This document shows, in pieces, positions 8,281 through 46,422 of a DNA stretch of 64,000 bases (the stretch's first letter is position 1; each line of letters opens with the position of its first letter). The position numbers and the translations under genes are program-made. Origin of the DNA: Clostridiales bacterium. GTDB lineage: Bacteria; Bacillota; Clostridia; Lachnospirales; WRAX01. The stretch spans positions 31 to 64,030 of the forward strand of contig JAISCI010000028.1 of assembly GCA_031265685.1 (NCBI GenBank), in the 5' to 3' direction. Under the pieces are notes generated by a model. The model did no database searches. It saw nothing but the letters and a program-made list of their open reading frames with translations, and had not been told where the DNA came from.

Positions 8281-8468
8281 TTCCACTTAGAATTTGCGCC
8301 GGATATTTTTTCGAGCTTGCGTGTCCGAATTTTGCTTAGTTCACACAAAATTCTCATCGGAATTTTGCTTGGTTCGCACAAAATTCTCATCGGAATTTTG
8401 CTTGGTTCACGCAAAATTCTTAGGGGCGGCCGAAAATATTCGGCGTCCTTTAGAGTGGAATTAGTATA
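8278..8468 (+). mobile_element. TIR-bounded non-coding element, copy A (MITE-like, no ORF)
   Basis: Left end: (ATC)TAATTCCACTTAGAATTTGCGCCGGATATTTTTT. Right end: CCGAAAATATTCGGCGTCCTTTAGAGTGGAATTAGTAT. Homologous ends occur at 59764-59931 and, inverted, at 18181-18415. It lies between two convergent genes. Confidence 0.75.
8327..8420 (+). repeat. Tandem array of a 33-bp hairpin unit, about 2.9 copies, inside element A
   Basis: The unit GAATTTTGCTTrGTTCrCrCAAAATTCTCATCG starts at 8327, 8360 and 8393. Confidence 0.9.
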
Positions 8469-30707: not shown

Positions 30708-31897
30708 TCAGGCGTTTCCCTTCCTTAGCGCCGAGCGCGCCTTCCAGAGAGCGTACCGCGCCCAATTCACAGCCTCCTTCGGCACAAACCGCCGGATCAT
30801 ATTGGTTGCAGACTTTCCCGCCGTCTTTCTGTAAAGCTCGCCGAACGGCTCGCTGTCAAGCCCCGCGAAGAAATCCCCGCGCCGCTTATTTGTGCCGCTC
30901 GAAGCGTATATGCCGTGGTTGAAGGCGCAAGCTTCCCCAACGCTCGAAGCGATTGTATCGCAAAACGGCGCCAATCGCCCAAACAGCTCCTCGCCTTTGG
31001 CGGTATTTACCATGACGAGCGATACGCCCCGACCATCGTCGAAACGCCCGAGCATCTGCCTGCCGCCCCAGAAATCCCCTATGGTCACGTCCGCGCCCGA
31101 GCGAAATCCTTTGGCCGCGCAGTCGCGGCACGACGGCCGCAGGAACAGATTTACCATGAAGCCCAGCATGTACGGCGAATCGTCGTCCCGCTCCGTTTTG
31201 CCGTCAACAACCAGAAGCGTGTCGAGCGCGGTCTGCCAGCGCTTCCGCTTATGCCGGAACGCGAGGCCAGTCGGCGCGGAACCAAAACGCCGCGCCGCGT
31301 CTTTGATGTATTTGTCAAGAACTTTCTGGCTGGGCACGCCATGACATACAAAATCGACAATAGTCAAGCGGTCTCGGTTCACGCTGAATTCCGCCAAAAA
31401 GCGACGCAACCCCAGTGCCTGGCACGGCGTACCAGTGAAGAGGACGCGCTCGCCCCTGTCAAGAAATTCCTTGCAACGGACGTAACTGTCTCCGATGTCG
31501 GACTGTACATATTTGGAACCGCGAAAGCGTGCGTACGATCCATCCGTGACGAAGGAGTGCCGGCAGCGCATTCCGCGCATCTCGCTGCCAAATATTGCCC
31601 CCCCCCTATCATAAAGTCCTCAGCGATCAGCGAGAAAACGCCGCCCGAGGTGGACGCGCCGCGAATGGCGTCGTCTCGGGCTTTAACGCCCCAGACCGAG
31701 ATAGGGCCGCCGCCAAGGGCCAGCGACGCGTACTGGCAAACCCTCTCGCAGATCCCGCACTCGGAGCACCTGTCTTTTGCCGCGACAGGATACGCAAAGC
31801 CCTCTCCGTCGCTTACCATGGAAATGGCCCCATGCGGACACGCTGCCTGGCAGGCAGAGCATCCGCAGCAAGCCCCTTTATTAATTATATCAATCAT
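30708..31897 (-). pseudogene. Coenzyme F420 hydrogenase/dehydrogenase beta-subunit-like protein (N-terminal 2x[4Fe-4S] ferredoxin), interrupted by a frameshift in a G9 tract
   Basis: The N-terminal frame reads MIDIINKGACCGCSACQAACPHGAI...CSECGICERVC...TSGGVFSLIAEDFMIGGG. The C-terminal frame (30708-31580) resumes with ...FRGSKYVQSD...FTGTPCQ...VCHGVPS. One extra G would join them into about 396 aa. Confidence 0.8.
31598..31606 (-). repeat. Homopolymeric tract: C9 on the plus strand, G9 on the coding strand
   Basis: Read directly as ATTG-CCCCCCCCC-TATC. It sits exactly at the point where the frame changes. Confidence 0.95.
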
Positions 31898-33143
31898 CAG
31901 CCAACGCCCTTTCGAGATAATCGGCGGAGAACCGGCGCAACTCGCCCAGCGCGGCGTTGGACGCCGAGAAATCCACTTCCGCGGCGCCCGGCGTCAGCCA
32001 CTTAGACCAATCCCCGGACAGATCCGCCATGCGGTCCATCAGCCCGGTCTGCGACAGCAGCGAGGACGCCCGCTCGTTACGGTAACACGCGACCGCATAG
32101 AACGGGATATTGAAGTTGACGGCGAAAGCCGTGCCATGGAACGAATTGGTCACGACGAACCGCGCGCGGGCCAACAGCTCCACGAACCGCCTGGGATCGG
32201 CCGTGGATTCGTAGCGCGTGGATGGTGAAAGATCCGCCAGAAACCGCTGGTCGATGATAACGGGTGTAAGGCCCAGTATCTTCGCCAGCTTTTTGGCGAA
32301 GCCGTATACGCGCACACGGTTCGACAGCGCGTACACGACAAGCGTATCATCTCGGGATTTCGCCTGATTCACGCAAAATTCCCTTTCGTCCTCAATACCG
32401 AGCGAGGAGAGCCATTCCCCTCGCGTGAGCATCAGCGTCGGGTCAAGCGCGCAGACTGCCTCAATCCCCAGCGCCTCGCGGACTTTCCCGACATGCTGCG
32501 CTTCCCGCACGGAAACGGCGGAGTACGCCCGCAAATAACCCGCGATCCTCTCATTGACGGCTCGGTCGGCGAATTTATAGTTACCGAACGAAGCGGAATA
32601 CGCGACGCGCCTGACACCCTCGGGTAGGAATCCAAGGAAATAAACCGGCGTCACGCCGAAATACATCGGATTCCATATTTGGTCGCTGCCGCTTACCGCC
32701 GCGTCATAACCTGAAAATCCCTCGGCGACGCTTTCCTCCGCATACTCCTGTGTATAGGCTATGTACGTATCCCAAAACCTACGGTAATTCGCGATAAGGC
32801 GACGGCGCTTTCCGTAGTTGACAATATCGGAAACCATCCCGTAGACGCGGTTCATCAGTTCCGGCAACAGCTCGGACTTCTCGAGCTTAGCCGCTCCCCC
32901 GCCGATCTTTTTGCGCGAAAATACGGATCTCACTGTAGAAAAAGCTATCACTATGAATCCGACCCGCACCGGCCTAACGGTAGCGGCGACCATGCCGTGC
33001 CGGTAATCCAAGCACTTTACGTCAAAGCGGCGGCTCAGGCACGCGAACAGCGCGAACTCCTGCAGACTGCCGCCGTAGTTGACGTTACGGCTGAACGTTA
33101 CTAACAGTATCTTCCTCGCGCCCGGCTTCGGATTGTCTGACAA
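31890..33143 (-). CDS. Polysaccharide pyruvyl transferase family protein (CsaB/WcaK-like)
   Basis: ILLVTFSRNVNYGGSLQEFAL...GSDQIWNP...VVTNSFHGTAFAVNFNIPF matches the PS_pyruv_trans pattern. The start is TTG and overlaps the upstream gene. Confidence 0.8.
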   Translation of the reverse strand: MSDNPKPGARKILLVTFSRNVNYGGSLQEFALFACLSRRFDVKCLDYRHGMVAATVRPVRVGFIVIAFSTVRSVFSRKKIGGGAAKLEKSELLPELMNRVYGMVSDIVNYGKRRRLIANYRRFWDTYIAYTQEYAEESVAEGFSGYDAAVSGSDQIWNPMYFGVTPVYFLGFLPEGVRRVAYSASFGNYKFADRAVNERIAGYLRAYSAVSVREAQHVGKVREALGIEAVCALDPTLMLTRGEWLSSLGIEDEREFCVNQAKSRDDTLVVYALSNRVRVYGFAKKLAKILGLTPVIIDQRFLADLSPSTRYESTADPRRFVELLARARFVVTNSFHGTAFAVNFNIPFYAVACYRNERASSLLSQTGLMDRMADLSGDWSKWLTPGAAEVDFSASNAALGELRRFSADYLERALADD

Positions 33144-34107
33144 AGCGCTCGCCCTCCTTGACTATGTTAGTCTCGCGGCGAAGGTAGATCGGGCGGCGTT
33201 TAATCTCCATATATATGCGCGCTATGTATTCGCCGATTATCCCCAGCAGCGATATGACTATACCACCCAGAAACAGCATGATTATTATGGTTGTGGCGAA
33301 GCCGGACGTGACCGCCCCGTAAATCGCCGTCCGGAAAAAGATGAACAGCCCGTACGCGACAGCCGCGAGCACGACGACCGCGCCCAAAATATACGACAGC
33401 CGGAGCGGAGCGGTCGAGAACGCGACAATCCCCGAGACGGCATACTTGAGCAGGGACCAGAACGACCACTTGGACGTTCCGGCGGCGCGCGGCACGTGCT
33501 CATACTCGATCCATTTGACCTTGAACCCCACCCACTCGAATAGTCCTTTGGAGAAGCGCTCCCTCTCGCCCATCGCCAGCATGGCGTCCGCCACCGCCCG
33601 CGTCATCAGCCTGCAATCGCGCGCGCCCGGCTTCAGCTTGACGCTCGAAGCCTTGTTTATCAAGCGGTAAAACATGTTGGCGAAAAAGCTCCTTATGGGC
33701 GGTTCGCCTTTTCGGTCGGACCGGCACAGCGCCACGCAGTCGTAGCCCTCGTCTATCCCCTCCAGCATTTCCGGCAATACGCCCGGCGGATCCTGCAAAT
33801 CGGCGTCCATTATCGCCAGCAAGTCGCCCCGGCTCTCGCTGAATCCGGCGAACAGCGCGGCTTCTTTGCCGAAATTGCGCGAGAACGATATGTAGCGGAT
33901 ACGGTCGTTCCCATGCGTGAACGCCAGTTTCTTTATCTCGGCCAGCGTGTCGTCGCGGCTGCCGTCGTCCACGAACAGGATGGACCACGTGTACGGAAGA
34001 GGCGCCATGTCTTTCGCGAGCGCCTCGTAGAACAGCGGCACGCATTCCTCCTCGTTGTAGCACGGAACGATTACCTCGATATGCCGTTTATTGCTCACGC
34101 GATCCAT
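33085..34107 (-). CDS. GT2 polyprenyl-phosphate glycosyltransferase (GtrB/CsbB-like)
   Basis: IEVIVPCYNEEE...VDDGSRD...MDADLQDPP, followed by two C-terminal TM helices. Confidence 0.85.
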   Translation of the reverse strand: MDRVSNKRHIEVIVPCYNEEECVPLFYEALAKDMAPLPYTWSILFVDDGSRDDTLAEIKKLAFTHGNDRIRYISFSRNFGKEAALFAGFSESRGDLLAIMDADLQDPPGVLPEMLEGIDEGYDCVALCRSDRKGEPPIRSFFANMFYRLINKASSVKLKPGARDCRLMTRAVADAMLAMGERERFSKGLFEWVGFKVKWIEYEHVPRAAGTSKWSFWSLLKYAVSGIVAFSTAPLRLSYILGAVVVLAAVAYGLFIFFRTAIYGAVTSGFATTIIIMLFLGGIVISLLGIIGEYIARIYMEIKRRPIYLRRETNIVKEGERFVRQSEAGREEDTVSNVQP

Positions 34108-35356
34108 CCCCCTTTATTATGTAAATCATATTGATCACGAACACAGCTCCGCCGACCGACGCGACACAGACGGCGATCGCTTCCGGCGACGTCTGATTAT
34201 ACCCCAGCCAGAACGCCAGCGCCGCGCCCGCCACGCTCACCGCGAGCGGAAACCGCAGCCTGCCCCGCGCCACGGCATAGTTCATATTCAGCATATTGAG
34301 CGTCGTCGAAACGCCGATGGCGCACGAATAATTGATGTACCCGACCGCCGATATATACTTTCCCCCTACCAGAATCGACACGATCTGGCCGGGGAACAGC
34401 AGTATCGGCGCCATGAACACGGCGCTGGTAAGCAGGATGTACAGCAGCGCGCGCAGATACAGCGGGACGACCCCGCCCTTGTCCGACATGTTCGACCGGG
34501 AGACCATCGGCAGAAAGACGTTTATGAGCGCCGTAACCGCGAACACCAGTATCTTGCCGAACTGCGCCGCAGAGCCGTACAGCCCGGACACCCCCTCGTC
34601 GAAGCGTAGCCGAACGATGAGTACGTCCGAATACATCATGAACACGACGCACAGGTTGAGCGCGAGCGACGCGCCCAGCAAGCGGCCCCTCCTTACAGAT
34701 TCCCGCAGCCCGCCGATTGCCTCCGAAAACGAAGGCTTGTCCCCGCCCAGCTTACGGCGCAGGGCGAACCATCCGAATACGACGGCCAGCACGCTGCCCA
34801 GCGCCAGGAAGATCAGCATAGCGAACAGCCTGTCCCCGCCCGTCACGAACAGCACGGCGAAGCCTATGCCGGCCACTTTGAGAACGGCCTCGATCATGGT
34901 TATGACCGGCATTATCACGAAGCGCTGCAAACCCTGCGCGACACCCGTAGCGACATAGCGCGGGTACGCGACGGCGACGCACGCGGTCATGAGCGCGCAT
35001 AGCGCCAGACTTCCGACGCTCATAGCGCCGTCGATAACGGGCGACAACGCGAGACCGACGGCAAGCATACCGCACACGACGACAGCCGTAAACACCGCGA
35101 ACCCGGCGACAAACAGCCGCGATCCGCCCCCGCCGGACTCCTTCTCGGACACCGTCTTCGCGACGTACAGCTGAAACGCCTGCCCCGGCACGCCCAAGAT
35201 GAAGATAATGGATATTATCGTATTCAGCAATCCGTAATCCGCGACGGTGAGCGCCCGGGCGGACAGTATCTGGAAAGCGTAGTTGACGACATTAGTCAGC
35301 ATTGAAAAACCAAACAGCAACAGCGAGCGCTTTTCAAAGCTTGCCTCACTCTTCAA
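34088..35356 (-). CDS. MOP/Wzx-type polysaccharide flippase
   Basis: About 12-14 TM helices. The start is placed at TTG 35356, because the longer tracked N-terminus is Arg-rich and overlaps the yfhO 3' end. Confidence 0.7.
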   Translation of the reverse strand: MKSEASFEKRSLLLFGFSMLTNVVNYAFQILSARALTVADYGLLNTIISIIFILGVPGQAFQLYVAKTVSEKESGGGGSRLFVAGFAVFTAVVVCGMLAVGLALSPVIDGAMSVGSLALCALMTACVAVAYPRYVATGVAQGLQRFVIMPVITMIEAVLKVAGIGFAVLFVTGGDRLFAMLIFLALGSVLAVVFGWFALRRKLGGDKPSFSEAIGGLRESVRRGRLLGASLALNLCVVFMMYSDVLIVRLRFDEGVSGLYGSAAQFGKILVFAVTALINVFLPMVSRSNMSDKGGVVPLYLRALLYILLTSAVFMAPILLFPGQIVSILVGGKYISAVGYINYSCAIGVSTTLNMLNMNYAVARGRLRFPLAVSVAGAALAFWLGYNQTSPEAIAVCVASVGGAVFVINMIYIIKGDGSREQ

Positions 35357-38342
35357 GCGGACCGCCCTCTTCCGTCTCGGACTCCTCCGCGCCGACGATA
35401 TATTCGGCGGTGTACGGCAGTTCTTCGGCTGTATCCGTGAATTCCGCGCCGTCGTCCCCGTAAGCGCCGTCAGCCGGTTCCGGCCAGCCGGTCGGATCAC
35501 GCAAATCCTCTATCTCATCCGCCTCCGCGATCTCATCGCGCCCCTTAAACTCTTCGACCGGCGTGACGGGCGATTCGCTCTTCCCGCCCCGGCCCCTTCT
35601 CTTTCTCCCGCCAGGCAGCCTGATGATTGTTTCGCCGAAGAATGTCGCGAACAAAGCTATTCCCGAGACGGCGAACGACTCGGCCAAGCCGTATACGCGG
35701 AACTCAAGCCTTATATCGTGCCGCCCCGCCCGGACGCTGAAAGCCAGGAACGCTTCCGCGACCTTCTCCGTAGCCACCTCCGCGCCGTCCACATAGACAT
35801 GCCAGCGCTTGTCGTAAGGTATCGTCGTAAACATAACGCCGCCTCGGCCGGCGTTGACGAACCCCTCCACGTGAGTGTCGTCGTAGTGCGTAACCTCGAA
35901 CGGACTCCGGGACAGCTCGTCTATCGTCTCAAGGTAGCGCTCCTCGTCCATCTGGAACAGATCGACGAAGAACGTTCCCGATTCCCTCGACGCGACGACC
36001 GCCTCGCGTTCCCTGTCGTACAGTCCGAGCAGGAACAGCGGGTTCTGGCTCTTGGTCTCGTCGAGCGTCCGCTCCACGTACGCCGACTCCGGCTTCAGCG
36101 GGTTCTGGAAAAACAAGCCGAGCACAACCTCGTCTCCGGCTTCAAGTTTCCCCAAGCCGATTATCTCGTTCTGCGTGTTGATCTGTATGCCAGATATATT
36201 TTCCCCATTTATTTTGACATACACGCCTCTGAGATTGTCTATGTTCAGCGTCAGGAACGTCGAACGATTCGCCGGTATCTTAAAACGAAGGTACACATAA
36301 ATATGATCCGTAGTTTTTATGGTCGGCGAAACTTCATAAGTTCCTGAAATACCGTCATCACTCAACTCGACCGAACAGTTGCGGGTATACGCGCTTCCGT
36401 CAGATTTTATCGCGCCAAGGAGCAGATTACCCTCTATGCCCGCCAAAGCTTTCGCGAAGTCATTTTGGGTGCGCTTAGCCGTCTTCATGACGCTATACGG
36501 GTCGTAATCCAGAATATTCTTATCGACGACAAATCCGAGCGGCAATACTTTCGTGTTCTCGTAAAGCGTTACTTTGTCGAACACCGCCGCTTCCTCGTAA
36601 TACTCGGGCGGCTTGTTTCTGTTATACGCTCTGTTTATAGAGTATTTGACCGCGAACACGGAGTTGAGCAGCGGCGTAGGGAAACGATAGTCAATACGGC
36701 TCTGTGTCGCTCCAACTCCCAGATTCCTGCAGAACTCGGTGACGCTTTCATAGCTGATCGCAAACGAGGAAATGGAATTATAACCAAACAAGGATCCTCC
36801 GCTGGATAACCTCTTCGGAGACATATCCGCGCGGTATAAAGCGTCCTCCGCGCCAAGCAACTCGCTTACCTTCTCCATGTCGTCGTTCAGCTCTATAGCG
36901 TACTGCTCCCGTGTAGTCTCAACCATATGAATCTGCATATTCTTCGCCGCGCCCGTAGACACCTCGACAAGCGCTAACGCGAACACGAACCCAAGCAACA
37001 CCTTTCGGCGCTCCGGCACCCTCGACGCATAGTACAGCAACGCTACATATATCAGTATAAATACAAAATTCTCGAACACCGCCGCGACGGTTACGTAGCC
37101 CGAAAGACTCCATGAAACGGCGGGAAACATTATCCATAACAACACAACTCCGCCAAGCATTGCCAATGTCGTAATGCGGAAGCTTTTCAGCGGCACCGCC
37201 TGGATCTTTTCGAAGCTTTGCGCCGCAAGGAACAGCGTGAAGAAGCACATGATGAACAGCACCCTGTGCGGAAAGCCCGTCGGATAGCGCATACCGTTGA
37301 GAACGTAGCCCAGTATGTTGACCGAAGCCGCGAGAATGAGAAACAGCAGAACGCCGCCGTACACCAGCTTCTGTTTTTTGGGTATGGCCGGGTTGACGAA
37401 ATAGAACACCGCGAGCACAAGCGCGAACACTCCGACATATATATTGGGCGTACCGTTCGCGTTGGAGAGCAGAACCGACGGCGCTACGTCGAAGAGATAC
37501 CCTGTGAGCACCTGCGGTATTGAGAAAAAGAATTCCAGCGGGGGTATGGAAGAACCCGCCGAGGCGTACTTGGTGTTTCCGAGCAACAGCGCCGCCGGAA
37601 CCAGCACTACCCCAGCTATCCCAACCGCGAGAACAGACGACACGGCGTATTTGAGAATCGTCTTCCAGTAATACGCGCGGCTCTGGCTCTCCTTAAGGTA
37701 CAGCTCGGCAATGAAATACAGCCCGGAGAAGACGCACAGGAACATCCCGAAAAGATAATTCGTTATGATGGCCGCGCCCAGGACGACAGCGTAAAATTTA
37801 TATTTGCCGTCTTTTATAATATTATCCACGCCGACCGCTACGAGCGGGAGCATCGCTATGCAGGGCAGCCAATAAAACACCACGAAATAAGCCGTCACAA
37901 AAGACGACAGCCCATAAGCGATTGACAGCGCTATCGCGACGATATCCCCGCGCCCGAAGCGTTTCTTCATATAATAAGCGAAGCCCGCCGATATCGCCGG
38001 AATATGTATCAGGTAATAGAGCGAAAAGAATTCCGTTATATATTCGTTACCGAACAGCGGCGCCAGCAATACGAACGGGTTCATCAGCGACGTTATCATT
38101 AGCAGATAATTGTCAACGCCGAACTGCGCCTGCCATGTATAAAAGGGACTGCCGCCCTCGGTGAGTCGGCGCGCCAGCTCGGCTATACGCGGCGCGTACG
38201 ATTGAAACGAGTCGTAGAATAAAACGTGCCTGTCGCCGAACGGATATACCCACGCGAGCATGTAGACGAGAATCACGATCCCCATCGTTATGATATACGA
38301 CAGGAATATTGCCGAGCCGAAAAACCGTTTGAGTCCGTTCAT
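35346..38342 (-). CDS. yfhO: YfhO-family (GT-C type) membrane glycosyltransferase with a long extracytoplasmic C-terminal domain
   Basis: Translation from ATG 38342 gives MNGLKRFFGSAIFLSYII...VYPFGDRHVLFYDSFQSYAP. It has about 13 TM helices, is about 998 aa, and pairs with the CsbB-like GT2. Confidence 0.8.
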   Translation of the reverse strand: MNGLKRFFGSAIFLSYIITMGIVILVYMLAWVYPFGDRHVLFYDSFQSYAPRIAELARRLTEGGSPFYTWQAQFGVDNYLLMITSLMNPFVLLAPLFGNEYITEFFSLYYLIHIPAISAGFAYYMKKRFGRGDIVAIALSIAYGLSSFVTAYFVVFYWLPCIAMLPLVAVGVDNIIKDGKYKFYAVVLGAAIITNYLFGMFLCVFSGLYFIAELYLKESQSRAYYWKTILKYAVSSVLAVGIAGVVLVPAALLLGNTKYASAGSSIPPLEFFFSIPQVLTGYLFDVAPSVLLSNANGTPNIYVGVFALVLAVFYFVNPAIPKKQKLVYGGVLLFLILAASVNILGYVLNGMRYPTGFPHRVLFIMCFFTLFLAAQSFEKIQAVPLKSFRITTLAMLGGVVLLWIMFPAVSWSLSGYVTVAAVFENFVFILIYVALLYYASRVPERRKVLLGFVFALALVEVSTGAAKNMQIHMVETTREQYAIELNDDMEKVSELLGAEDALYRADMSPKRLSSGGSLFGYNSISSFAISYESVTEFCRNLGVGATQSRIDYRFPTPLLNSVFAVKYSINRAYNRNKPPEYYEEAAVFDKVTLYENTKVLPLGFVVDKNILDYDPYSVMKTAKRTQNDFAKALAGIEGNLLLGAIKSDGSAYTRNCSVELSDDGISGTYEVSPTIKTTDHIYVYLRFKIPANRSTFLTLNIDNLRGVYVKINGENISGIQINTQNEIIGLGKLEAGDEVVLGLFFQNPLKPESAYVERTLDETKSQNPLFLLGLYDREREAVVASRESGTFFVDLFQMDEERYLETIDELSRSPFEVTHYDDTHVEGFVNAGRGGVMFTTIPYDKRWHVYVDGAEVATEKVAEAFLAFSVRAGRHDIRLEFRVYGLAESFAVSGIALFATFFGETIIRLPGGRKRRGRGGKSESPVTPVEEFKGRDEIAEADEIEDLRDPTGWPEPADGAYGDDGAEFTDTAEELPYTAEYIVGAEESETEEGGPLEE

Positions 38343-38453: not shown

Positions 38454-39800
38454 TTAGAACCCCAGAGCCGGCGTCTCGTCGTAGAAACCTGCCGCCGTAT
38501 AATCCTCATCCTCATAAGCGCTGTTAACCTTGCCGCTGTTAACCTTGCTGCGGAACGCGAGGGTTTTTTTAGCCGCCTCGGCGGGCGCTTCTTCGGAACT
38601 GCTGACGCCTGAATCAACATCGCTTATCACGCCAAGATCAATCGTGATGGCGACCTTAATCTCGGGATCAACCGGGATTATGACTACCCTAAGTTCCGCC
38701 TCGTTATGCGCGGAAGTGGGCGTGAATTCATCGCCCTCTTCGACAGTTACCCACGTCTGGCCGCCGTCTGTCGATATCTGCCACAGTATCCTGACCTTGC
38801 TGTTGCTCGTCAGGGCGTCCGGGGCTTGTACTGATCCGCTGATTGTGATGCTGCCTATCAGCGCCTCTAACTCGCCCCTCGCTTCCAGCACTTCCTCCTC
38901 GGTGATTATGGACTCCCCGTCCTCGTCCGTAATTTCATTCCCGCCGTCTTCGTACTCTCCAAGTTCCCCCAGATCAATCACATCTACAGGCGGCTCGGAG
39001 GTCGGAACCGGAGCCGACGTAGCCGGAGCCGCTGTCGGAGCCGCTGTAGCCGGAGCCGACGTCGAGGGCGTATCGGTGCTGGGCCTGTGCCAGCCCTGCG
39101 CGCCGCTTCCTCCCCCGCTGCCGGCGGGCGCGGCTGTTGGCGCGCTTGATGCCGGAGCTGTCGGAGCTACCGCCACGCCCGGGGTGGCCAGCGCCACTAC
39201 CAGTATCTCGGCGCGGCTTATCGTGCGCGTCGGACGAAGCGTGTTGTCCTCAGGGTACCCGCCGATTACGCCCGCCCCCACAAGGTAGCGGAAAGCGTTA
39301 GCGTAACGGGACGACACGAGGGACGCGTCCGAGAACCGCGTGATGGAATCCCCAGCTTTGGGGGCGGGGCTTCCCATCAGCGTGTAAAGCCACAGGAACG
39401 CGTCCTGCCGCGTGATGTTGACGCCGGGATTGAAGGCGCCCTTTGACGGCGCCGTTTTGGTTATGTATCCGAACGCCTCGGCGTCCGCCACGATCTGGTA
39501 ATACCAGGCGCCGGGCAGAACGTCGGTGTAGCTGGGCGTGTTTTTCGTCTCCGGCACTTTGTAGTACCGATTGTAAATACTGACAAGCTCTACGTTTGTC
39601 ACCTTATCGTCCGGTCTGAAAAGATCGCCCGTAGTATTGATTATGTCTTTGTCCGCCCCGCTGATGATGCTCGCCTGCGCCCAGTGCCCGGATATATCAT
39701 TGAAAACGGGAGCGCCGGAAGCAATCGGCGACAAAACTAAGGCAAGAACCAAAACCACGCTCAAGGCAAACGATCCCAGGTAAAGCTTTCCCTTCCTCAA
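38454..39800 (-). CDS. Cell-wall-anchored protein with three N-terminal SLH domains, a P/A/T/S linker and an acidic C-terminal domain
   Basis: Translation from TTG 39800 (GGAGAGG RBS 9 nt upstream) gives the signal peptide MRKGKLYLGSFALSVVLVLALVLSPIASGA. SLH motifs follow: FNDISGHWAQ..., YTDVLPGAWYY..., FSDASLVSSRYANAFRYLVGAGVIGGY. Confidence 0.85.
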   Translation of the reverse strand: MRKGKLYLGSFALSVVLVLALVLSPIASGAPVFNDISGHWAQASIISGADKDIINTTGDLFRPDDKVTNVELVSIYNRYYKVPETKNTPSYTDVLPGAWYYQIVADAEAFGYITKTAPSKGAFNPGVNITRQDAFLWLYTLMGSPAPKAGDSITRFSDASLVSSRYANAFRYLVGAGVIGGYPEDNTLRPTRTISRAEILVVALATPGVAVAPTAPASSAPTAAPAGSGGGSGAQGWHRPSTDTPSTSAPATAAPTAAPATSAPVPTSEPPVDVIDLGELGEYEDGGNEITDEDGESIITEEEVLEARGELEALIGSITISGSVQAPDALTSNSKVRILWQISTDGGQTWVTVEEGDEFTPTSAHNEAELRVVIIPVDPEIKVAITIDLGVISDVDSGVSSSEEAPAEAAKKTLAFRSKVNSGKVNSAYEDEDYTAAGFYDETPALGF

Positions 39801-39833
39801 TACAATGCACCTCTCCTGCAATCTCCGTCTGTT

Positions 39834-39935
39834 CGCTCGGAAAAGCAGGTTCGCGACGCCTGATCTCAGGGTGAACGAGTCCGGCTAAAATTCCCAATCC
39901 TTCTAATGTCACGCGGATTGAGCCACATATCTTGA
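39834..39935 (-). repeat. 5'-leader repeat, unit 1 (proximal to the SLH start)
   Basis: About 100 nt, matching 40047-40146. The first 40 nt (CGCTCGGAAAAGCAGGTTCGCGACGCCTGATCTCAGGG) differ at one position. Confidence 0.85.
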
Positions 39936-40046
39936 CTAATTCTCGTGGCGGCCTACCATTAAGAGTATGCCACTTCCGCGTTATCCACCCCCTGCCGAAC
40001 ATAGCTTCACAATATGATACGCCTCTTTTGCGATCATCCGGCCATC

Positions 40047-40146
40047 CGCTCGGAAAAACAGGTTCGCGACGCCTGATCTCAGGGCAAACGGAACCGAATA
40101 AAATCCCCAATCCCGCCAATATCACGATGATTGGGCCGCATCTTAA
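40047..40146 (-). repeat. 5'-leader repeat, unit 2 (distal)
   Basis: A direct repeat of 39834-39935 at a 213-nt period. Confidence 0.85.
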
Positions 40147-40178
40147 ATAAATCCTCATGGTGACCTGCCATCACAATG

Positions 40179-40210
40179 AGTATAACATTTCCACCCCCCC
40201 CCCCTGTCAA
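40179..40210 (-). promoter_or_regulatory. Near-consensus SigA promoter with a G11 tract in the spacer, upstream of the SLH gene
   Basis: The minus strand reads TTGACA-GGGGGGGGGGG-TGGAAATGT-TATACT, with TGT-TATACT forming an extended -10. The spacer as read is 20 nt, against an optimum of 17. Confidence 0.6.
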
Positions 40211-40987
40211 GCAAAATTTCTCAATTTTTCGTGCTGTACACGGATAAGCAAAATGCCGAAATAACGGGATTGCGGGGGGATAGCGGACTATTTTCAGCGT
40301 CTGACGCAATATTAACGCAATAAAAACTATAAACTAACGGCGGCAGAGATGAGATGGAATCAATCGCAAACTTATGACGGGGAACGCGATGGGAGAAATT
40401 GTTGCTATGAGTTACTATAAAACCGCAAAAGCGCCTTAGATAAAAAGCTGTGTATTTCGCCTGCGAACAACAAAAATGATCCTGAAACAAGCGCAACAGT
40501 TATGCAAAATTACGAATTCTCCGAAAAGCGTTGCTGGATAATAGGCACAACTCAGATTAAGCGGTAACGCTACGGGAACAATCACTTGAAAACAGAGGGT
40601 ACGCCCTGGGACGCGCAACTGAATCTACTCGGATTTCATTGAACTGAATCTATACTGACGGATGAAAGATACGCGTAAAAGAAAAACGGCGTTGGTTGGC
40701 GAGCGGAGGCGCCGTAAATTTATACTTTTCACGCCGCCAACATCACGCCAAAGAACGAAACAGACGCTCCATATACCCCGGAGATTCAGCTATTCTGTCA
40801 CCTTCCTAAATATTGGCGGTCGGGGGAATGCCCCAAATTAAGCTTGACATAATCGAGTTAGAAGTGATAGACTATAGAGTTATGGCTGCATGCGAGCTGT
40901 CGGCAGCAATTTCTATCAGATTAGGTCAGCCGCCGACACCAACAACGGACGCCGCCTTATCCGGCGTCCGTTGTTGTAAGTTCTACG

Positions 40988-43584: not shown

Positions 43585-44267
43585 ATCCTGGCCTTCCTCT
43601 CCGATAGTTGGTAAGATCGTATCCTGTTTTTATCTATGGCCTTAGTATACCTCCCGATTTTTACGAATATTAGCGGATTTTGTGTCTAAATTGTAAACAT
43701 TGGGCTCGGATGATTTCTTAATTACAGCGGCGGTGTGGGGAGTGTCAAAATTCAAGCTGCGGTCGTTTGAAAGAAATTGATGAGAGTAAGGGGAAGCCCG
43801 GAGTATTTGCGCAGGCGGGTTTGGCTTGCCGGCTTGCGGTCGGATAGCTTTTGGCTTGGACTTGTACGCGCCTGTGTATTACAATCGAAAAATCGGCCAG
43901 TCAAGTTGTGCGCCAACACAAATGACAGCAAAATAATTATCTATCCTACAAAAACTAATCGTTACAACCCGTTATCCGCCGTTGTTCAGTGTTTAATTAT
44001 GCATTATCAGCGTTTCCCGCCGTTACCGGACCGCTCGTAAAACACGTATTGTCGGCACGTTTTTTATCGCTACAAACGACATTAACCATTCAAAAAGTGT
44101 CTACAAAAACTCGTAGACACTTTCAACCTCATACATTTACCGCCCTCTCAGCCTAGCTCAATTTCCTGTCCGCGATACGGATTACGGCGTCGGAAATCCG
44201 CGGCTGTTCTCACGGTCACTTAAAAGACGCTTCTTTCAATTCTCTTATGGAAATTTCAAACACGCTT

Positions 44268-44373
44268 GAATTTTGCGTGAATTGAAGCATTATCGTGTGG
44301 TTTGAACACGTGAAGCGCCTCAACCCGAGGGCTTACGAACATGACAGAATTTTGCTTGATTCACGCAAAATTC
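44268..44373. repeat. X/Y-word repeat block (partly degenerate)
   Basis: GAATTTTGC-GTGAATTGAA-GCATTATCG-TGTGGTTTGAAC ... GAATTTTGC-TTGATTCAC-GCAAAATTC. Confidence 0.75.
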
Positions 44374-44383
44374 GCTCACCATT

Positions 44384-44653
44384 GTGGCGCACAGGCTGGC
44401 CGCTATCGCCGTGAGTGAGGCCAGGGCGGCGCTGGACGGAGCCGGCGCGCTGAATGCGCCAATTCTACCCGGCGTCTATTCGCTGTCGCCGGTTGCGTCT
44501 GCCCGGCGTGTTCATCCGACGGAAAAGCCGCTGATGAATTTTGCGGGTTCAGGCAAAATTCAGGCGCTTATGCGCGAACTGGTAAAGATTGCTGGCAACC
44601 GCTTTGTACGCGTACGAGGTTTTGACGATTCAAACGCGCCAGAGCGTTGTTGA
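44384..44653 (+). pseudogene. Fragment of an N4/N6 DNA methyltransferase (HPTxKP motif) carrying a hairpin-module insertion
   Basis: ...ARRVHPTEKPL[MNFAGSGKIQ]ALMRELVKIAGN.... The bracketed residues are encoded by GAATTTTGC-GGGTTCAG-GCAAAATTC (44536-44561). The flanking catalytic regions are absent or degenerate. Confidence 0.5.
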
Positions 44654-44692
44654 AGGGGTTCGCAAAATAAGTTGAGGGGGTTCGCAAAATAA
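44649..44692 (+). repeat. Tandem 22-bp direct repeat, two copies
   Basis: GTTGAAGGGGTTCGCAAAATAA followed by GTTGAGGGGGTTCGCAAAATAA. Confidence 0.9.
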
Positions 44693-44862
44693 AAGGGAAG
44701 AAATACCCGGTAGGCAAGATCGAATCGGCGCTTGATGAGTTTGGTTATTTTGGCAAAGTATTTTCTGGGGCATAAAATGCGACTTTATTTATTTTGCGGG
44801 AGGCAACGAAATGGCGACTAAGAGCGTTATGAAAATCGTTACAGTGCGGAGTGAACGCGCCA

Positions 44863-44952
44863 TGAATTTTCGCGGGTTCGAAGCATTATCGCTTGGACGA
44901 ATTTTGCTTGGATCCGCAAAATTCCATCACGCGATAATGCGATGCGAAAATT
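44863..44952. repeat. Three-stem nested palindrome (X/Y word family)
   Basis: GAATTTTCGC-GGGTTCGAA-GCATTATCG-7-GAATTTTGC-TTGGATCC-GCAAAATTC-7-CGATAATGC-GAT-GCGAAAATTG. Confidence 0.85.
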
Positions 44953-45113
44953 GCCTTACCAGACGCTTGCTGGGCGCGTTTGAGAACGGCGAGAAGAGGG
45001 CGGTTAGGCGGACTGAGTTAAGAGGTCCGGTTGTGGACGCAGGGCGCGAGGAGATAGGGCGGCTGTTGGGCGGGGCATGAGATTTGGACAACGATAAGAC
45101 AGCCACTCGATGA

Positions 45114-45284
45114 TTAATGAGTGGCTGTCGGCAGATCGTCGGTTAGCTTTCTGATCCCGCGCCGGATCGCCTCCGCACGGGTCACGCCGGTAAGCTTAAT
45201 GTAACTGCTGAGAGTATTCGCGTCATCCGCGCCTAAGCGGACGAGTACCGGTTTGCTTTTGGGGTCGCTGGTAGGACATCCCAT
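45114..45284 (-). CDS. Ribbon-helix-helix (CopG/Arc-like) small DNA-binding protein; not in the ORF track (56 aa)
   Basis: MGCPTSDPKSKPVLVRLGADDANTLSSYIKLTGVTRAEAIRRGIRKLTDDLPTATH shows a beta-strand / helix / helix pattern. The stop codon overlaps a 10-bp hairpin (ACAGCCACTC...GAGTGGCTGT). The start and RBS are uncertain. Confidence 0.45.
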   Translation of the reverse strand: MGCPTSDPKSKPVLVRLGADDANTLSSYIKLTGVTRAEAIRRGIRKLTDDLPTATH

Positions 45285-45429
45285 TTTTTCATAATTTCCA
45301 ATATAATTTCTCCTTGCAAAGTCGCAATGACCGCGTTATAATGATCTTGGTCTGTGGGGCGATGGTAAGCCCGCCCTAAGTTGTGCTTTAACGGCTTGGC
45401 ACTGTCTGGGCCGTTATTTGTTGTTTGTC

Positions 45430-45576
45430 CTACGCTTTGTGCGTGAGCCAATCCTTTATCCTATCGAACAGTTCCTCGAGATTTTTCGCATCGTGGATGG
45501 CTAACAGTACATCTTTATAAGCACTTTCCCGCGCTTGTTGCACCAATGCTTCGGTTTGATTCATATCGTCTTCCAT
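45430..45576 (-). CDS. Small hypothetical helical protein; not in the ORF track (48 aa)
   Basis: A GAGAGGTGA RBS is followed by ATG. The sequence is MEDDMNQTEALVQQARESAYKDVLLAIHDAKNLEELFDRIKDWLTHKA. It lies upstream of the RHH gene on the same strand. Confidence 0.4.
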   Translation of the reverse strand: MEDDMNQTEALVQQARESAYKDVLLAIHDAKNLEELFDRIKDWLTHKA

Positions 45577-45976
45577 ATGTTCACCTCTCTCGCCGCTTAC
45601 CCAGCTGATAGCGGTTATTTCCGCCTCTTACTTTCTTAGTATATACTTTTGTATCTCAAAAATCAAGTTTTTTAATCTGAACAAAAATTCCATTGATTCA
45701 GTTTGCATTTAAGTATGGCTGACAATTTCAGGCAATCGCCCGAAGCCACAGGAAGTTACGGCGGACAGACTGACAGTGTGTAAACCGTGTCGTTAACGTG
45801 TTACTAACGCCCACCACCGCAAGCCGCTTAACTTTGGCGGGGTTGGCGGGGGTGAAAATTAAGTGAATTGTGTTGTGTGATTTTTCGGGTAAGAAATACG
45901 ATTGGGGAAAATATTATAAAGGTGCTGAGGATCTATCGAAAATCTTTCACTCAATAAAATGATAAAAAACTAAATC

Positions 45977-46005
45977 TTGCAAAAAATCACCGAATGAGCT
46001 ATAAT
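45977..46005 (+). promoter_or_regulatory. Strong SigA-type promoter
   Basis: TTGCAA (45977-45982), exactly 17 nt of spacer, then TATAAT (46000-46005). The next convincing start codon on this strand is the TetR gene at 46423. Confidence 0.65.
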
Positions 46006-46422
46006 AGATTTATCGGTGAACAATATGCGCTAAGATCGCCGAACGGACAAAAGTCTCCCACGCAACGTCTCATTACTTGAAACAATCGGAGTGTTTATCC
46101 GTGGTTTCGTAGTGGATGAGAGCCGGCTGACTATGGAGATGTTGTTGTCTTATACGCTAATGCGGGTATGGGAATTATGGGATTTGATTCCATGCGCTAA
46201 AAAGTCCGCTAAAGTTCAAATGGCGGTAAAAAGGTGCGCTGAACGCGAAAACCCGCGCGCGGTTGCCGTAATAAAGTCCCGCTTGGCTTCGTTTTGTCAG
46301 TTAAAAAATGTTAACGGAGCAAAACATAGTTCGTGATATTATGAGCAATGGGCGCCGTCTTAAAAGGCGGGGCGTGACATAGAATATTATGGAATAATCG
46401 TCGATATGAGGAGCGTATCCCC

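What the first reader, a model, noticed from the sequence alone, without database searches (positions are those of the whole stretch)
40179..40210. G11 tract in the spacer of a near-consensus promoter upstream of the SLH wall-protein gene
On the minus strand the sequence reads TTGACA-G11-TGGAAATGT-TATACT. That is a perfect -35 and an extended -10 (TGnTATACT), with a 20-nt spacer of which eleven are G. No other convincing promoter lies between here and the SLH gene start at 39800.

Spacer length controls promoter strength, with an optimum of 17 ± 1 nt. Homopolymer tracts in promoter spacers are a classic phase or rheostat mechanism for surface proteins in Neisseria, Haemophilus and Bordetella. 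Loss of 2-3 G would create an optimal promoter, so the state captured here would be weak or OFF.

This is the second long G tract within 9 kb of the same envelope locus.
Basis: partly seen in the sequence, partly recalled or inferred. Interest (0 to 1): 0.72.

Follow-up and report, generated by a model that had tools for sequence, protein, structure and literature searches.

The report
Slippery G-run inside a wall-protein promoter
A run of eleven Gs sits between the two recognition boxes of a conserved promoter for a cell-wall-anchored (SLH) protein operon in an uncultured Clostridiales bacterium, pushing the boxes 4 bases further apart than in the nearest relative; this probably makes a slippage-driven dimmer or off switch of a well-known kind, though length variation itself could not be shown.

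Summary
The minus strand reads TTGACA-G11-TGGAAATGT-TATACT (40210..40179), a 20-nt spacer with a TGn extended -10.

**The promoter looks real.**
- The only close relative with upstream DNA (JGI contig L003; SLH protein 81-83% identical) has the same upstream A/T block, -35, TGn and -10. Identity is 91% across the promoter against 62% in the leader.
- Its spacer is 16 nt, reading GAGGGGG where the window has G11.
- The window therefore carries a +4 G expansion, which gives a spacing expected to be weak or off.

**The tract is exceptional.**
- G/C runs of 7-8 are absent from the window; the only longer ones are this G11 and a G9.
- The G9 lies 8.6 kb downstream in the last gene of the same apparent operon (a Fer4/FrhB-like gene next to a pyruvyl transferase) and frameshifts it. 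G10 restores a 396-aa ORF.
- An independent Logan assembly of run SRR14710922 breaks inside the G11 tract.

**What is missing.** No read-level or between-strain length variation could be obtained, because the lineage is almost unsampled. Phase variation is therefore well motivated but unproven. One-way decay of the operon is the main rival.

**Also found.** The promoter and leader form a 213-nt tandem duplication whose downstream promoter copy has decayed.

This is a new member of a known kind.

The parts
40211..40227 (-). Conserved A/T-rich block directly upstream of the -35 (AAATTGAGAAATTTTGC); UP-element-like
   Evidence: 16/17 identical to L003 (AAATTGAGAAATTATGC). It contains the 9-nt ATTGAGAAA that recurs at the start codon in L003 and at the duplication junction.
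40205..40210 (-). -35 hexamer TTGACA (6/6)
   Evidence: identical in L003.
40194..40204 (-). G11 homopolymer in the spacer (C11 on the + strand). It corresponds to GAGGGGG (7 nt) in the relative.
   Evidence: The Logan contig of SRR14710922 starts 3 G inside it.
40185..40193 (-). Rest of the spacer, TGGAAATGT, including the TG of the extended -10 (40187-40186)
   Evidence: L003 has TGGAAATGA, 8/9 identical.
40179..40184 (-). -10 hexamer TATACT (5/6, with A2 and T6)
   Evidence: identical in L003.
39990..40172 (-). Leader copy A, running from the predicted start near 40172. It ends in a vestigial RBS (AAGAGG, 40027-40022) and a start-stop TTG-TGA (40012-40007).
   Evidence: Tandem repeat with 213-nt spacing; alignments. 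The transcription start is inferred, not mapped.
39964..39998 (-). Decayed duplicate of the promoter at the head of copy B: TCGGCA-G5-TGGA-(8-nt insertion)-AAG-TGG-CATACT, with a 23-nt spacing
   Evidence: Copy A and copy B promoters are 69% identical, against 91% for copy A versus L003.
39801..39962 (-). Leader copy B, ending at the real RBS (GGAGAGG) and the TTG start at 39800
   Evidence: The Logan gene call places the start at 39800.
40061..40083 (-). Conserved leader core, copy A (CCTGAGATCAGGCGTCGCGAACC). It is the apex of a predicted long hairpin.
   Evidence: Exact 23-mer present twice in the window with 0 expected by chance. TCAGGCGTCGCGAACCTGYTTTTC is invariant in copies A and B and in L003. 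Consensus fold.
39848..39870 (-). Conserved leader core, copy B
38454..39800 (-). SLH-domain wall protein gene (448 aa, with a signal peptide)
   Evidence: Pfam SLH PF00395, E = 6.9e-20. Identical to an NCBI MAG protein from 'Clostridiales bacterium'.
30708..38342 (-). Five co-directional downstream genes: YfhO-family protein (35346-38342), an unknown 422-aa protein, a GT2 glycosyltransferase, a polysaccharide pyruvyl transferase (31890-33143), and a Fer4/FrhB-like gene (30708-31897)
   Evidence: That they form one operon is inferred from strand, short or overlapping gaps, and the absence of a predicted terminator between the SLH and YfhO genes.
31598..31606 (-). G9 tract inside the Fer4/FrhB-like coding sequence; it frameshifts the gene in the assembled state
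   Evidence: In silico G10 gives one 396-aa ORF; G8 does not. The restored protein matches NCBIfam FpoF/PRK09326 in a single stretch (residues 2-198) spanning the junction. The Logan contig also has G9.

Best explanation
This is the housekeeping-sigma (sigma-A type) promoter of an apparent operon. The operon encodes an SLH-anchored surface protein together with enzymes that build and pyruvylate a wall glycan. The promoter's spacer carries a hypermutable G homopolymer.

**Proposed mechanism.**
- The working architecture is an A/T-rich upstream block, TTGACA, a 16-18-nt spacer, TGn and TATACT.
- Slipped-strand mispairing in the G run adds or removes single Gs. This changes the distance and helical phase between the -35 and -10 boxes, and so sets transcription of the whole operon like a rheostat.
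- In the sampled population the consensus is G11, a 20-nt spacer, which is 4 nt longer than in the nearest relative. This is a low or off state. Any residual activity would come only from the TGn extended -10, and possibly from the decayed duplicate promoter.
- A second G tract (G9) in the last gene of the operon acts as a translational on/off site and is also captured in the off frame.

**Shown.**
- The sequence anatomy.
- Conservation of the promoter.
- The +4 difference confined to the tract.
- The rarity of such tracts in the window.
- The frameshift and its in silico repair.

**Inferred.**
- The transcription start.
- The operon structure.
- The effect of spacing on activity.
- Actual length heterogeneity.
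- Any adaptive value.
For: 1. Exact anatomy.
2. Phylogenetic footprint. The promoter is 91% identical to L003 while the leader is 62% identical. The alignment is collinear on both sides, with a single 4-nt gap inside the G run.
3. The relative's spacer is 16 nt, and good hexamer pairs in this window peak at a 17-nt spacer.
4. Within the window's own 213-nt duplication the downstream promoter copy has decayed: the -35 is 4/6, there is an 8-nt insertion, and the -10 reads CATACT. The upstream copy keeps perfect boxes. The upstream promoter has therefore been under selection until recently, which means the +4 expansion is recent or reversible.
5. The G/C run spectrum is bimodal. There are no runs of 7-8, then 9 and 11, and P(>=11) is about 0.03 even without allowing for the depletion.
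6. Both long tracts lie in one co-directional envelope gene cluster, and the coding tract is exactly one G from an intact 396-aa gene.
7. The independent Logan assembly ends inside the G11 tract but is 100% identical elsewhere over 8.5 kb.
8. The mechanism class is established for fetA (poly-C) and porA (poly-G) between the -10 and -35 boxes (PMC5320596; PMC5084427).
Against: - No tract-length variation was observed. The only two assemblies come from what appears to be the same run, and both give G9 at the second tract.
- The ON form of the frameshifted protein is absent from a 15-billion-protein collection.
- The Logan break lies 3 G into the tract. That fits low coverage or poly-G sequencing failure better than a clean length polymorphism, so it is ambiguous. 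It also means the count of 11 could be off by one or so.
- G11 is 2-4 steps from the good spacings, so it is not a one-step switch.
- The relative's tract is interrupted (GAG5) and therefore stable, so a variable tract is not a conserved feature of the lineage.
- Both tracts being 'off' is equally what decay of the operon would look like.
- The transcription start is unmapped.
Confidence: 0.55

Rival explanations
1. One-way decay. The SLH/wall-glycan operon is being lost in this lineage. The +4 expansion is a recent, effectively fixed promoter-down mutation, and the G9 frameshift is an ordinary pseudogenising indel. Neither serves as a switch.
For: - Both tracts are in a non-functional length in the consensus.
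- No ON variant is on record.
- The relative has a stable, interrupted tract with normal spacing.
- G11 is several steps away from a functional spacing.
Against: - All six ORFs are otherwise intact, and the -35, -10 and TGn are still perfect, whereas the duplicated promoter copy shows what decay looks like here.
- Random decay does not explain why the only two G/C runs longer than 6 in 64 kb are both in this cluster.
- From general knowledge of slippage rates, runs of 9-11 G are intrinsically reversible at high frequency, so 'one-way' is mechanistically unlikely.
Confidence: 0.25
2. Length artefact. The true tract is shorter (G7-G9, normal spacing), and G11 is a miscount by the assembler across a poorly sequenced poly-G stretch.
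For: - A second assembly of the run could not cross the tract, so few good reads span it.
- From general knowledge, poly-G is error-prone on Illumina instruments.
Against: - The flanks align collinearly with the relative on both sides, so the region is not a chimeric join.
- The two assemblies are otherwise 100% identical over 8.5 kb and agree on G9 at the other tract.
- An error of 2 or more bases in a consensus would be needed to change the conclusion.
Confidence: 0.1
3. The tract lies in a promoter-like sequence that is not the operative promoter. Transcription of the SLH gene would start elsewhere: at the vestigial extended -10 TGGCATACT (39972-39964), from an alternative-sigma promoter, or by read-through from the HtrA-like genes. 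Tract length would then be irrelevant.
For: - No transcription start data exist.
- The leader would be unusually long (about 370 nt).
- A TGn-CATACT element lies nearer the gene.
Against: - The strong, selective conservation of the -35, spacer 3' half, TGn and -10 between lineages is hard to explain otherwise.
- A 15-bp perfect hairpin follows the HtrA-like gene (I2).
- No other -35/-10 pair was found on the minus strand in the 1.2-kb intergenic region.
Confidence: 0.08
4. A MerR-type promoter. The 20-nt spacer would be deliberate and would be realigned by a DNA-twisting activator bound in the spacer.
For: Perfect hexamers with a 19-20-nt spacer are typical of MerR-family targets (from general knowledge).
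Against: - The spacer (G11-TGGAAATGT) has no dyad symmetry, and no inverted repeat lies within the promoter.
- The relative has the same promoter with a 16-nt spacer, so the long spacer is not a conserved design.
Confidence: 0.02

Closest known systems
Neisseria meningitidis porA (poly-G) and Neisseria fetA/frpB (poly-C) promoter-spacer tracts
   Same: A G/C homopolymer sits between the -35 and -10 boxes of a surface-protein promoter, and its length sets the spacing and hence transcription (PMC5320596, citing van der Ende 1995 and Carson 2000). As in Neisseria, coding-region tracts occur alongside in envelope genes (PMC5084427).
   Different: - The host here is a Gram-positive-type, uncultured Clostridiales.
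- The target is an SLH protein plus a wall-glycan pyruvylation operon.
- Length variation and expression effects are not demonstrated.
- The captured state is 4 nt beyond the relative's spacing.
- The promoter has a TGn extended -10, which may blunt dependence on the -35.
Bordetella pertussis fim2/fim3 poly-C tracts and Mycoplasma hyorhinis vlp poly-A promoter tracts (recalled from memory; Bordetella homopolymer survey PMC1891110 listed)
   Same: Homopolymer length in the promoter controls a surface antigen, and slippage gives reversible variants.
   Different: - In Bordetella the tract spaces an activator (BvgA) site from the -10.
- In Mycoplasma the tract is poly-A.
- Neither controls an SLH/secondary-cell-wall-polymer system.
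Clostridioides difficile cwpV-type phase variation of cell-wall proteins (recalled from memory)
   Same: Stochastic on/off control of a clostridial cell-wall protein from within a long 5' leader region.
   Different: That system uses site-specific inversion between inverted repeats by a recombinase. Here no inverted repeats flank the promoter or leader, and the variable element would be a homopolymer.
Bacillus subtilis swrA poly-A tract (recalled from memory) and the general homopolymer gene switches surveyed in PMC2831843
   Same: A Firmicute example of a coding homopolymer whose +/-1 slippage toggles a gene, analogous to the G9 tract in the FrhB-like gene.
   Different: That tract is coding only, and A/T rather than G/C. 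It is not a surface-anchoring operon, and it has been verified experimentally.

Membership tests
Promoter-spacer homopolymer phase variation (porA/fetA type) | A simple-sequence tract located between the -35 and -10 hexamers | tested here: met
   TTGACA-G11-TGGAAATGT-TATACT at 40210-40179.
Promoter-spacer homopolymer phase variation (porA/fetA type) | The hexamers are the functional promoter of the regulated gene (mapped start) | not testable with these tools
   Support is indirect only. The promoter is 91% identical to the relative against 62% for the leader, and there is no other -35/-10 pair upstream of the gene.
Promoter-spacer homopolymer phase variation (porA/fetA type) | Tract length varies among clonal descendants or strains at high frequency | tested here: inconclusive
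   - One relative differs by 4 nt exactly in the tract, but it belongs to a different lineage (81-83% protein identity).
- The Logan contig breaks in the tract.
- No reads or further strains are available.
Promoter-spacer homopolymer phase variation (porA/fetA type) | Expression level depends on tract length | not testable with these tools
   This needs reporter fusions or in vitro transcription.
Intragenic homopolymer contingency locus (translational on/off) | A homopolymer inside the ORF whose +/-1 change shifts between an intact and a truncated frame | tested here: met
   G9 at 31606-31598 splits the Fer4 and FrhB_FdhB_C parts. G10 gives a 396-aa ORF that matches FpoF-type profiles continuously across the junction.
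Intragenic homopolymer contingency locus (translational on/off) | Both ON and OFF lengths observed in nature | tested here: not met
   Both assemblies have G9. The G10 and G7 products are not in the protein collection. Sampling amounts to essentially one run, so this negative is weak.
MerR-type long-spacer promoter | A dyad-symmetric operator within a conserved 19-20-bp spacer | tested here: not met
   There is no dyad in the spacer, and the relative's spacer is 16 nt.
Invertible-DNA promoter switch | Inverted repeats flanking the promoter or leader segment | tested here: not met
   No inverted repeat flanks it. The only one touching it is a 15-nt match of the -35 region to a second, divergent promoter-like site 615 nt away (I4), and that does not bracket the promoter.
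SLH-domain cell-wall protein (Pfam PF00395) | SLH repeats detected above the curated threshold | tested here: met
   E = 6.9e-20, 71 bits against a cut-off of 20.8, 2 stretches.
Any Rfam riboswitch or leader family (for the duplicated 5' leader) | A covariance-model match | tested here: not met
   No hit at gathering score in the whole window, and none at E <= 10 in 39700-40900.

The most novel reading that the evidence does not exclude
An uncultured Clostridiales bacterium runs a two-tier homopolymer contingency system on its SLH anchoring machinery.
- A promoter-spacer G tract dims or silences the whole operon, comprising the SLH protein, a YfhO-family protein, glycosyltransferases and a pyruvyl transferase.
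- A coding G tract independently toggles the FrhB-like partner of the pyruvyl transferase.

A clonal population would then display several wall-surface states, for example for phage or host evasion. As far as my searches show, this would be the first homopolymer-based phase variation described for an SLH/pyruvylated wall-polymer system. It would also catch the switch at birth: an A-to-G change turns GAG5 into a pure, expandable run.
Probability: 0.3. Interest if true: 0.6.

Novelty: new member of a known kind. Interest (0 to 1): 0.42.

Why it matters
Homopolymer phase variation is textbook for Neisseria, Haemophilus, Bordetella, Campylobacter and mycoplasmas. It is little documented for clostridial-type wall proteins, where the described switches are DNA inversions.

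If real, this locus would show that environmental or gut Clostridiales use slippage to vary an SLH protein together with the enzymes that make its wall ligand. That bears on phage susceptibility and on surface antigenicity.

It is also directly testable from existing reads of one SRA run. There is a practical point too: metagenome-assembled genomes freeze one tract length, so annotation of such operons, and of the 'pseudogene' at the G9 tract, can mislead.

Tried and rejected
- **Rfam.** A whole-window scan at gathering score and a permissive scan of 39700-40900 found nothing. The leader is not a known riboswitch.
- **Single-sequence folds of the leader.** These are no more stable than shuffled controls (z = +0.75, -0.19, -0.37).
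- **Consensus fold of the three leader copies.** It gives a long hairpin with only 3 compensatory pairs, too few sequences to claim a structure.
- **Fold of the region upstream of and through the promoter.** The result is weak (-13 kcal/mol over 184 columns, 2 sequences). I rejected the idea that the C-run and G-run form an RNA element.
- **Comparative searches.**
  - Two genome-contig scans with the leader core found 0 hits.
  - A metagenome scan with the core found 0 hits.
  - A metagenome scan with a gapped promoter pattern returned two unrelated consensus promoters with no G tract (L007, L008).
  - Protein searches with the full SLH protein, its N-terminal domain and YfhO found only one close relative.
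  - The 34-40%-identical SLH genes (L005, L006) sit inside other operons with no comparable promoter.
- **Sample identity.** No paper mentions SRR14710922 or the JGI identifiers.
- **MerR-type promoter and invertible switch.** I considered both and rejected them (see the membership tests).
- **The 153-aa ORF through both leader copies (39697-40158).** I considered it as coding. Differences between the copies fall at all codon positions, and the ORF overlaps the SLH start out of frame, so I treated it as non-coding.

Full report
**1. The observation**

The minus strand between 40210 and 40179 reads TTGACA GGGGGGGGGGG TGGAAATGT TATACT.
- The homopolymer is C11 on the + strand at 40194-40204.
- The spacer is 20 nt, and a TG sits one base upstream of the -10 hexamer.
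- The finding's coordinates and description are therefore exact.
- The window is 57% G+C.

The run-length spectrum for G/C makes the tract stand out.

| Run length | Observed | Expected (first-order Markov) |
|---|---|---|
| 6 | 10 | 19.7 |
| 7 | 0 | 4.9 |
| 8 | 0 | 1.2 |
| 9 | 1 | 0.32 |
| 11 | 1 | 0.02 |

The sequence avoids medium-length G/C runs, and the two long ones are outliers.

A scan for pairs of good hexamers at spacers 13-23 shows a peak at 17 nt (7 of 24). It ranks this site among the best hexamer matches but at spacer 20. The standard 16-18-nt scan finds no other minus-strand promoter in the 1.2-kb intergenic region.

**2. Context**

The tract lies 394 nt upstream of the TTG start (39800) of a 448-aa protein with a signal peptide and SLH repeats (Pfam E = 6.9e-20). 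An independent gene call places the start at the same base.

Five further genes follow on the same strand with short or overlapping gaps:
- a YfhO-family membrane protein
- a 422-aa protein with no family match
- a GT2 glycosyltransferase
- a polysaccharide pyruvyl transferase
- a 4Fe-4S/FrhB-like gene

SLH domains are known to bind pyruvylated secondary cell-wall polymers (my own knowledge). The cluster therefore appears to encode a wall protein together with enzymes for its ligand.

Upstream are two HtrA-like protease genes. A 15-bp perfect hairpin closes them off (I2).

The window is identical to an NCBI metagenome-assembled genome labelled 'Clostridiales bacterium', on a contig of 73,765 nt.

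**3. Is it a real promoter?**

Only one close relative with upstream DNA exists in the collections. It is a 1,554-nt JGI contig (L003) whose SLH protein is 81-83% identical.

Its upstream sequence reads AAATTGAGAAATTATGC TTGACA GAGGGGGTGGAAATGA TATACT. Aligned with the window, the flanks are collinear on both sides. The only length difference in the promoter is a 4-nt gap inside the G run.

| Comparison | Promoter identity | Leader identity |
|---|---|---|
| Window copy A vs L003 | 91% (30/33) | 62% |
| Window copy A vs copy B | 69% | 75.5% |

(All.)

This selective conservation of the upstream A/T block, -35, TGn and -10 is the strongest evidence available here that the element is the functional promoter. 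The relative's spacer is 16 nt. The window's 20 nt therefore results from a +4 expansion, plus an A/G difference that makes the run uninterrupted.

**4. An internal control: the duplication**

The promoter and leader form a tandem duplication with a 213-nt period (alignments). L003 has a single copy.

In L003 the 9-mer ATTGAGAAA occurs both just upstream of the -35 and at the start codon. The junction in the window, ATTGTGAAGCTATG, is a diverged version of that join. I infer that the duplication arose by unequal exchange between these short direct repeats.

The downstream copy's promoter has decayed. It reads TCGGCA, G5, an 8-nt insertion, then TGGCATACT, giving a 23-nt spacing. The upstream copy has kept perfect boxes.

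This shows what an unselected copy of the promoter looks like in this lineage. It argues that the upstream promoter was functional until recently, so the +4 state is young or reversible.

Copy A also retains a vestigial RBS and a TTG-TGA start-stop at 40012-40007.

**5. The second tract**

The G9 at 31606-31598 lies inside the last gene of the cluster.
- As assembled, the 4Fe-4S part (ORF 31379-31897) and the FrhB_FdhB_C part (ORF 30708-31580) are in different frames.
- Adding one G in silico yields a single 396-aa ORF. Removing one does not.
- The repaired protein matches FpoF-type NCBIfam profiles in one continuous stretch (residues 2-198) across the junction at about residue 98.
- The Logan contig of SRR14710922 is 100% identical to the window over 8,487 nt and also has G9. 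The frameshift is therefore not an artefact of one assembler.

**6. Evidence bearing on variability**

The Logan contig carrying the SLH gene begins GGGTGGAAATG..., which is inside the G11 tract.

Neighbouring Logan contigs are 2-9 kb long. A break within an 11-nt target is therefore very unlikely by chance, and the tract itself causes it.

However, a break only 3 G into the tract is what low coverage or poly-G read failure would give. It is not what a clean two-length polymorphism would give, because that would branch at the far end of the run. I regard it as ambiguous. It also means the exact count of 11 could be off by one or so.

No read data are accessible. Exact-match look-ups found no ON variant of the frameshifted protein.

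**7. Mechanism proposed**

The sigma-A-type promoter is tuned by slippage in the spacer G run.
- G7-G9 (16-18 nt) gives high activity.
- G10-G12 gives low or no activity.
- The TGn extended -10 possibly provides a floor.
- The operon's last gene has its own translational toggle.

The class of mechanism is established for fetA and porA in Neisseria (PMC5320596). Promoter-proximal and intragenic repeats in envelope genes are described more generally in PMC5084427, and PMC2831843 and PMC1891110 are listed.

My confidence is 0.55 that this tract functions as a hypermutable expression rheostat. I hold about 0.85 that it is the real promoter and that the present spacing is sub-optimal.

**8. Rivals**

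| Rival | Confidence | Main point |
|---|---|---|
| One-way decay of the operon | 0.25 | Fits both tracts being off and the lack of ON variants. Does not explain why the only two long G runs in 64 kb sit here while every ORF and promoter box is otherwise intact. |
| Miscounted tract length | 0.10 | Needs an error of 2 or more bases. |
| Promoter not used | 0.08 | Conflicts with the footprint. |
| MerR-type long-spacer promoter | 0.02 | Excluded by the absence of a dyad and by the 16-nt spacer in the relative. |
| Inversion switch | not scored | Not supported. |

**9. The leader**

Both leader copies and L003 share an invariant TCAGGCGTCGCGAACCTGYTTTTC.
- The exact 23-mer CCTGAGATCAGGCGTCGCGAACC occurs only at 40061-40083 and 39848-39870 in the window.
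- A consensus fold places it at the apex of a roughly 60-nt hairpin with a CGUCGCGAA loop and three compensatory pairs.
- Single-sequence stabilities are unremarkable, and Rfam has no match.
- It may be a protein-binding or mRNA-stabilising hairpin. Three sequences are too few to say.

**10. Verdict**

It is a new member of a known kind, of moderate interest, and cheaply testable from existing reads.

Noticed in passing
window 31598-31606 (minus-strand G9), gene 30708-31897: The Fer4/FrhB-like gene downstream of the pyruvyl transferase is frameshifted exactly at a G9 run. G10 restores a 396-aa ORF. NCBI annotates only the C-terminal fragment (MDR1209098.1).
   Followed up: yes
window 39795-40215 (minus strand): There is a 213-nt tandem duplication of the whole promoter-plus-leader unit, absent from the relative L003. 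The junction lies at a diverged ATTGAGAAA microhomology. The downstream promoter copy has decayed, and the upstream copy ends in a vestigial RBS plus TTG-TGA start-stop (40012-40007).
   Followed up: yes
window 40061-40083 and 39848-39870; L003 457-479: An invariant leader core, TCAGGCGTCGCGAACCTGYTTTTC, sits at the apex of a predicted long hairpin. It has no Rfam match and no hits in the genome or metagenome scans. It may be a new regulatory or stabilising leader element.
   Followed up: partly
window 40240-40345 (minus strand) vs L003 190-300: Conserved blocks extend about 130 nt upstream of the -35: GCCGTTAGTTTATWGTTTTT and TATYYCCCCCGMAAYCCCGTTATTTCGSCAT. They share a CCGTTA..TTT motif and may be regulator binding sites.
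   Followed up: no
window 40835-40873 (+ strand): A second promoter-like site (TTGACA-18 nt-TAGACT, with TG) points the opposite way. Its -35 region (AAATTAAGCTTGACA) is an inverted near-copy of the SLH promoter's (AAATTTTGCTTGACA) 615 nt away. It would transcribe about 100 nt into the hairpin at 40940-40976, antisense to the end of the HtrA-like gene, so it may drive a small RNA.
   Followed up: no
L002 position 1 = window 40196; L001 end = window 40575: Logan contigs of SRR14710922 break inside the G11 tract and again at 40575. The intervening roughly 380 nt is on no gene-bearing contig I could retrieve.
   Followed up: partly
window 43585-46422: A 2.8-kb stretch of lower G+C (40-55%) has only small ORFs. 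One is a 56-aa ribbon-helix-helix-like peptide (45114-45284, minus strand). It may be a remnant of a mobile element or a toxin-antitoxin region.
   Followed up: no
window 8327-8420: An intergenic tandem repeat of 33 nt x 2.8 copies, 93% matching (GAATTTTGCTTGGTTCACACAAAATTCTCATCG). Each unit contains a short inverted repeat (GAATTTTG...CAAAATTC), so it may be an operator array.
   Followed up: no
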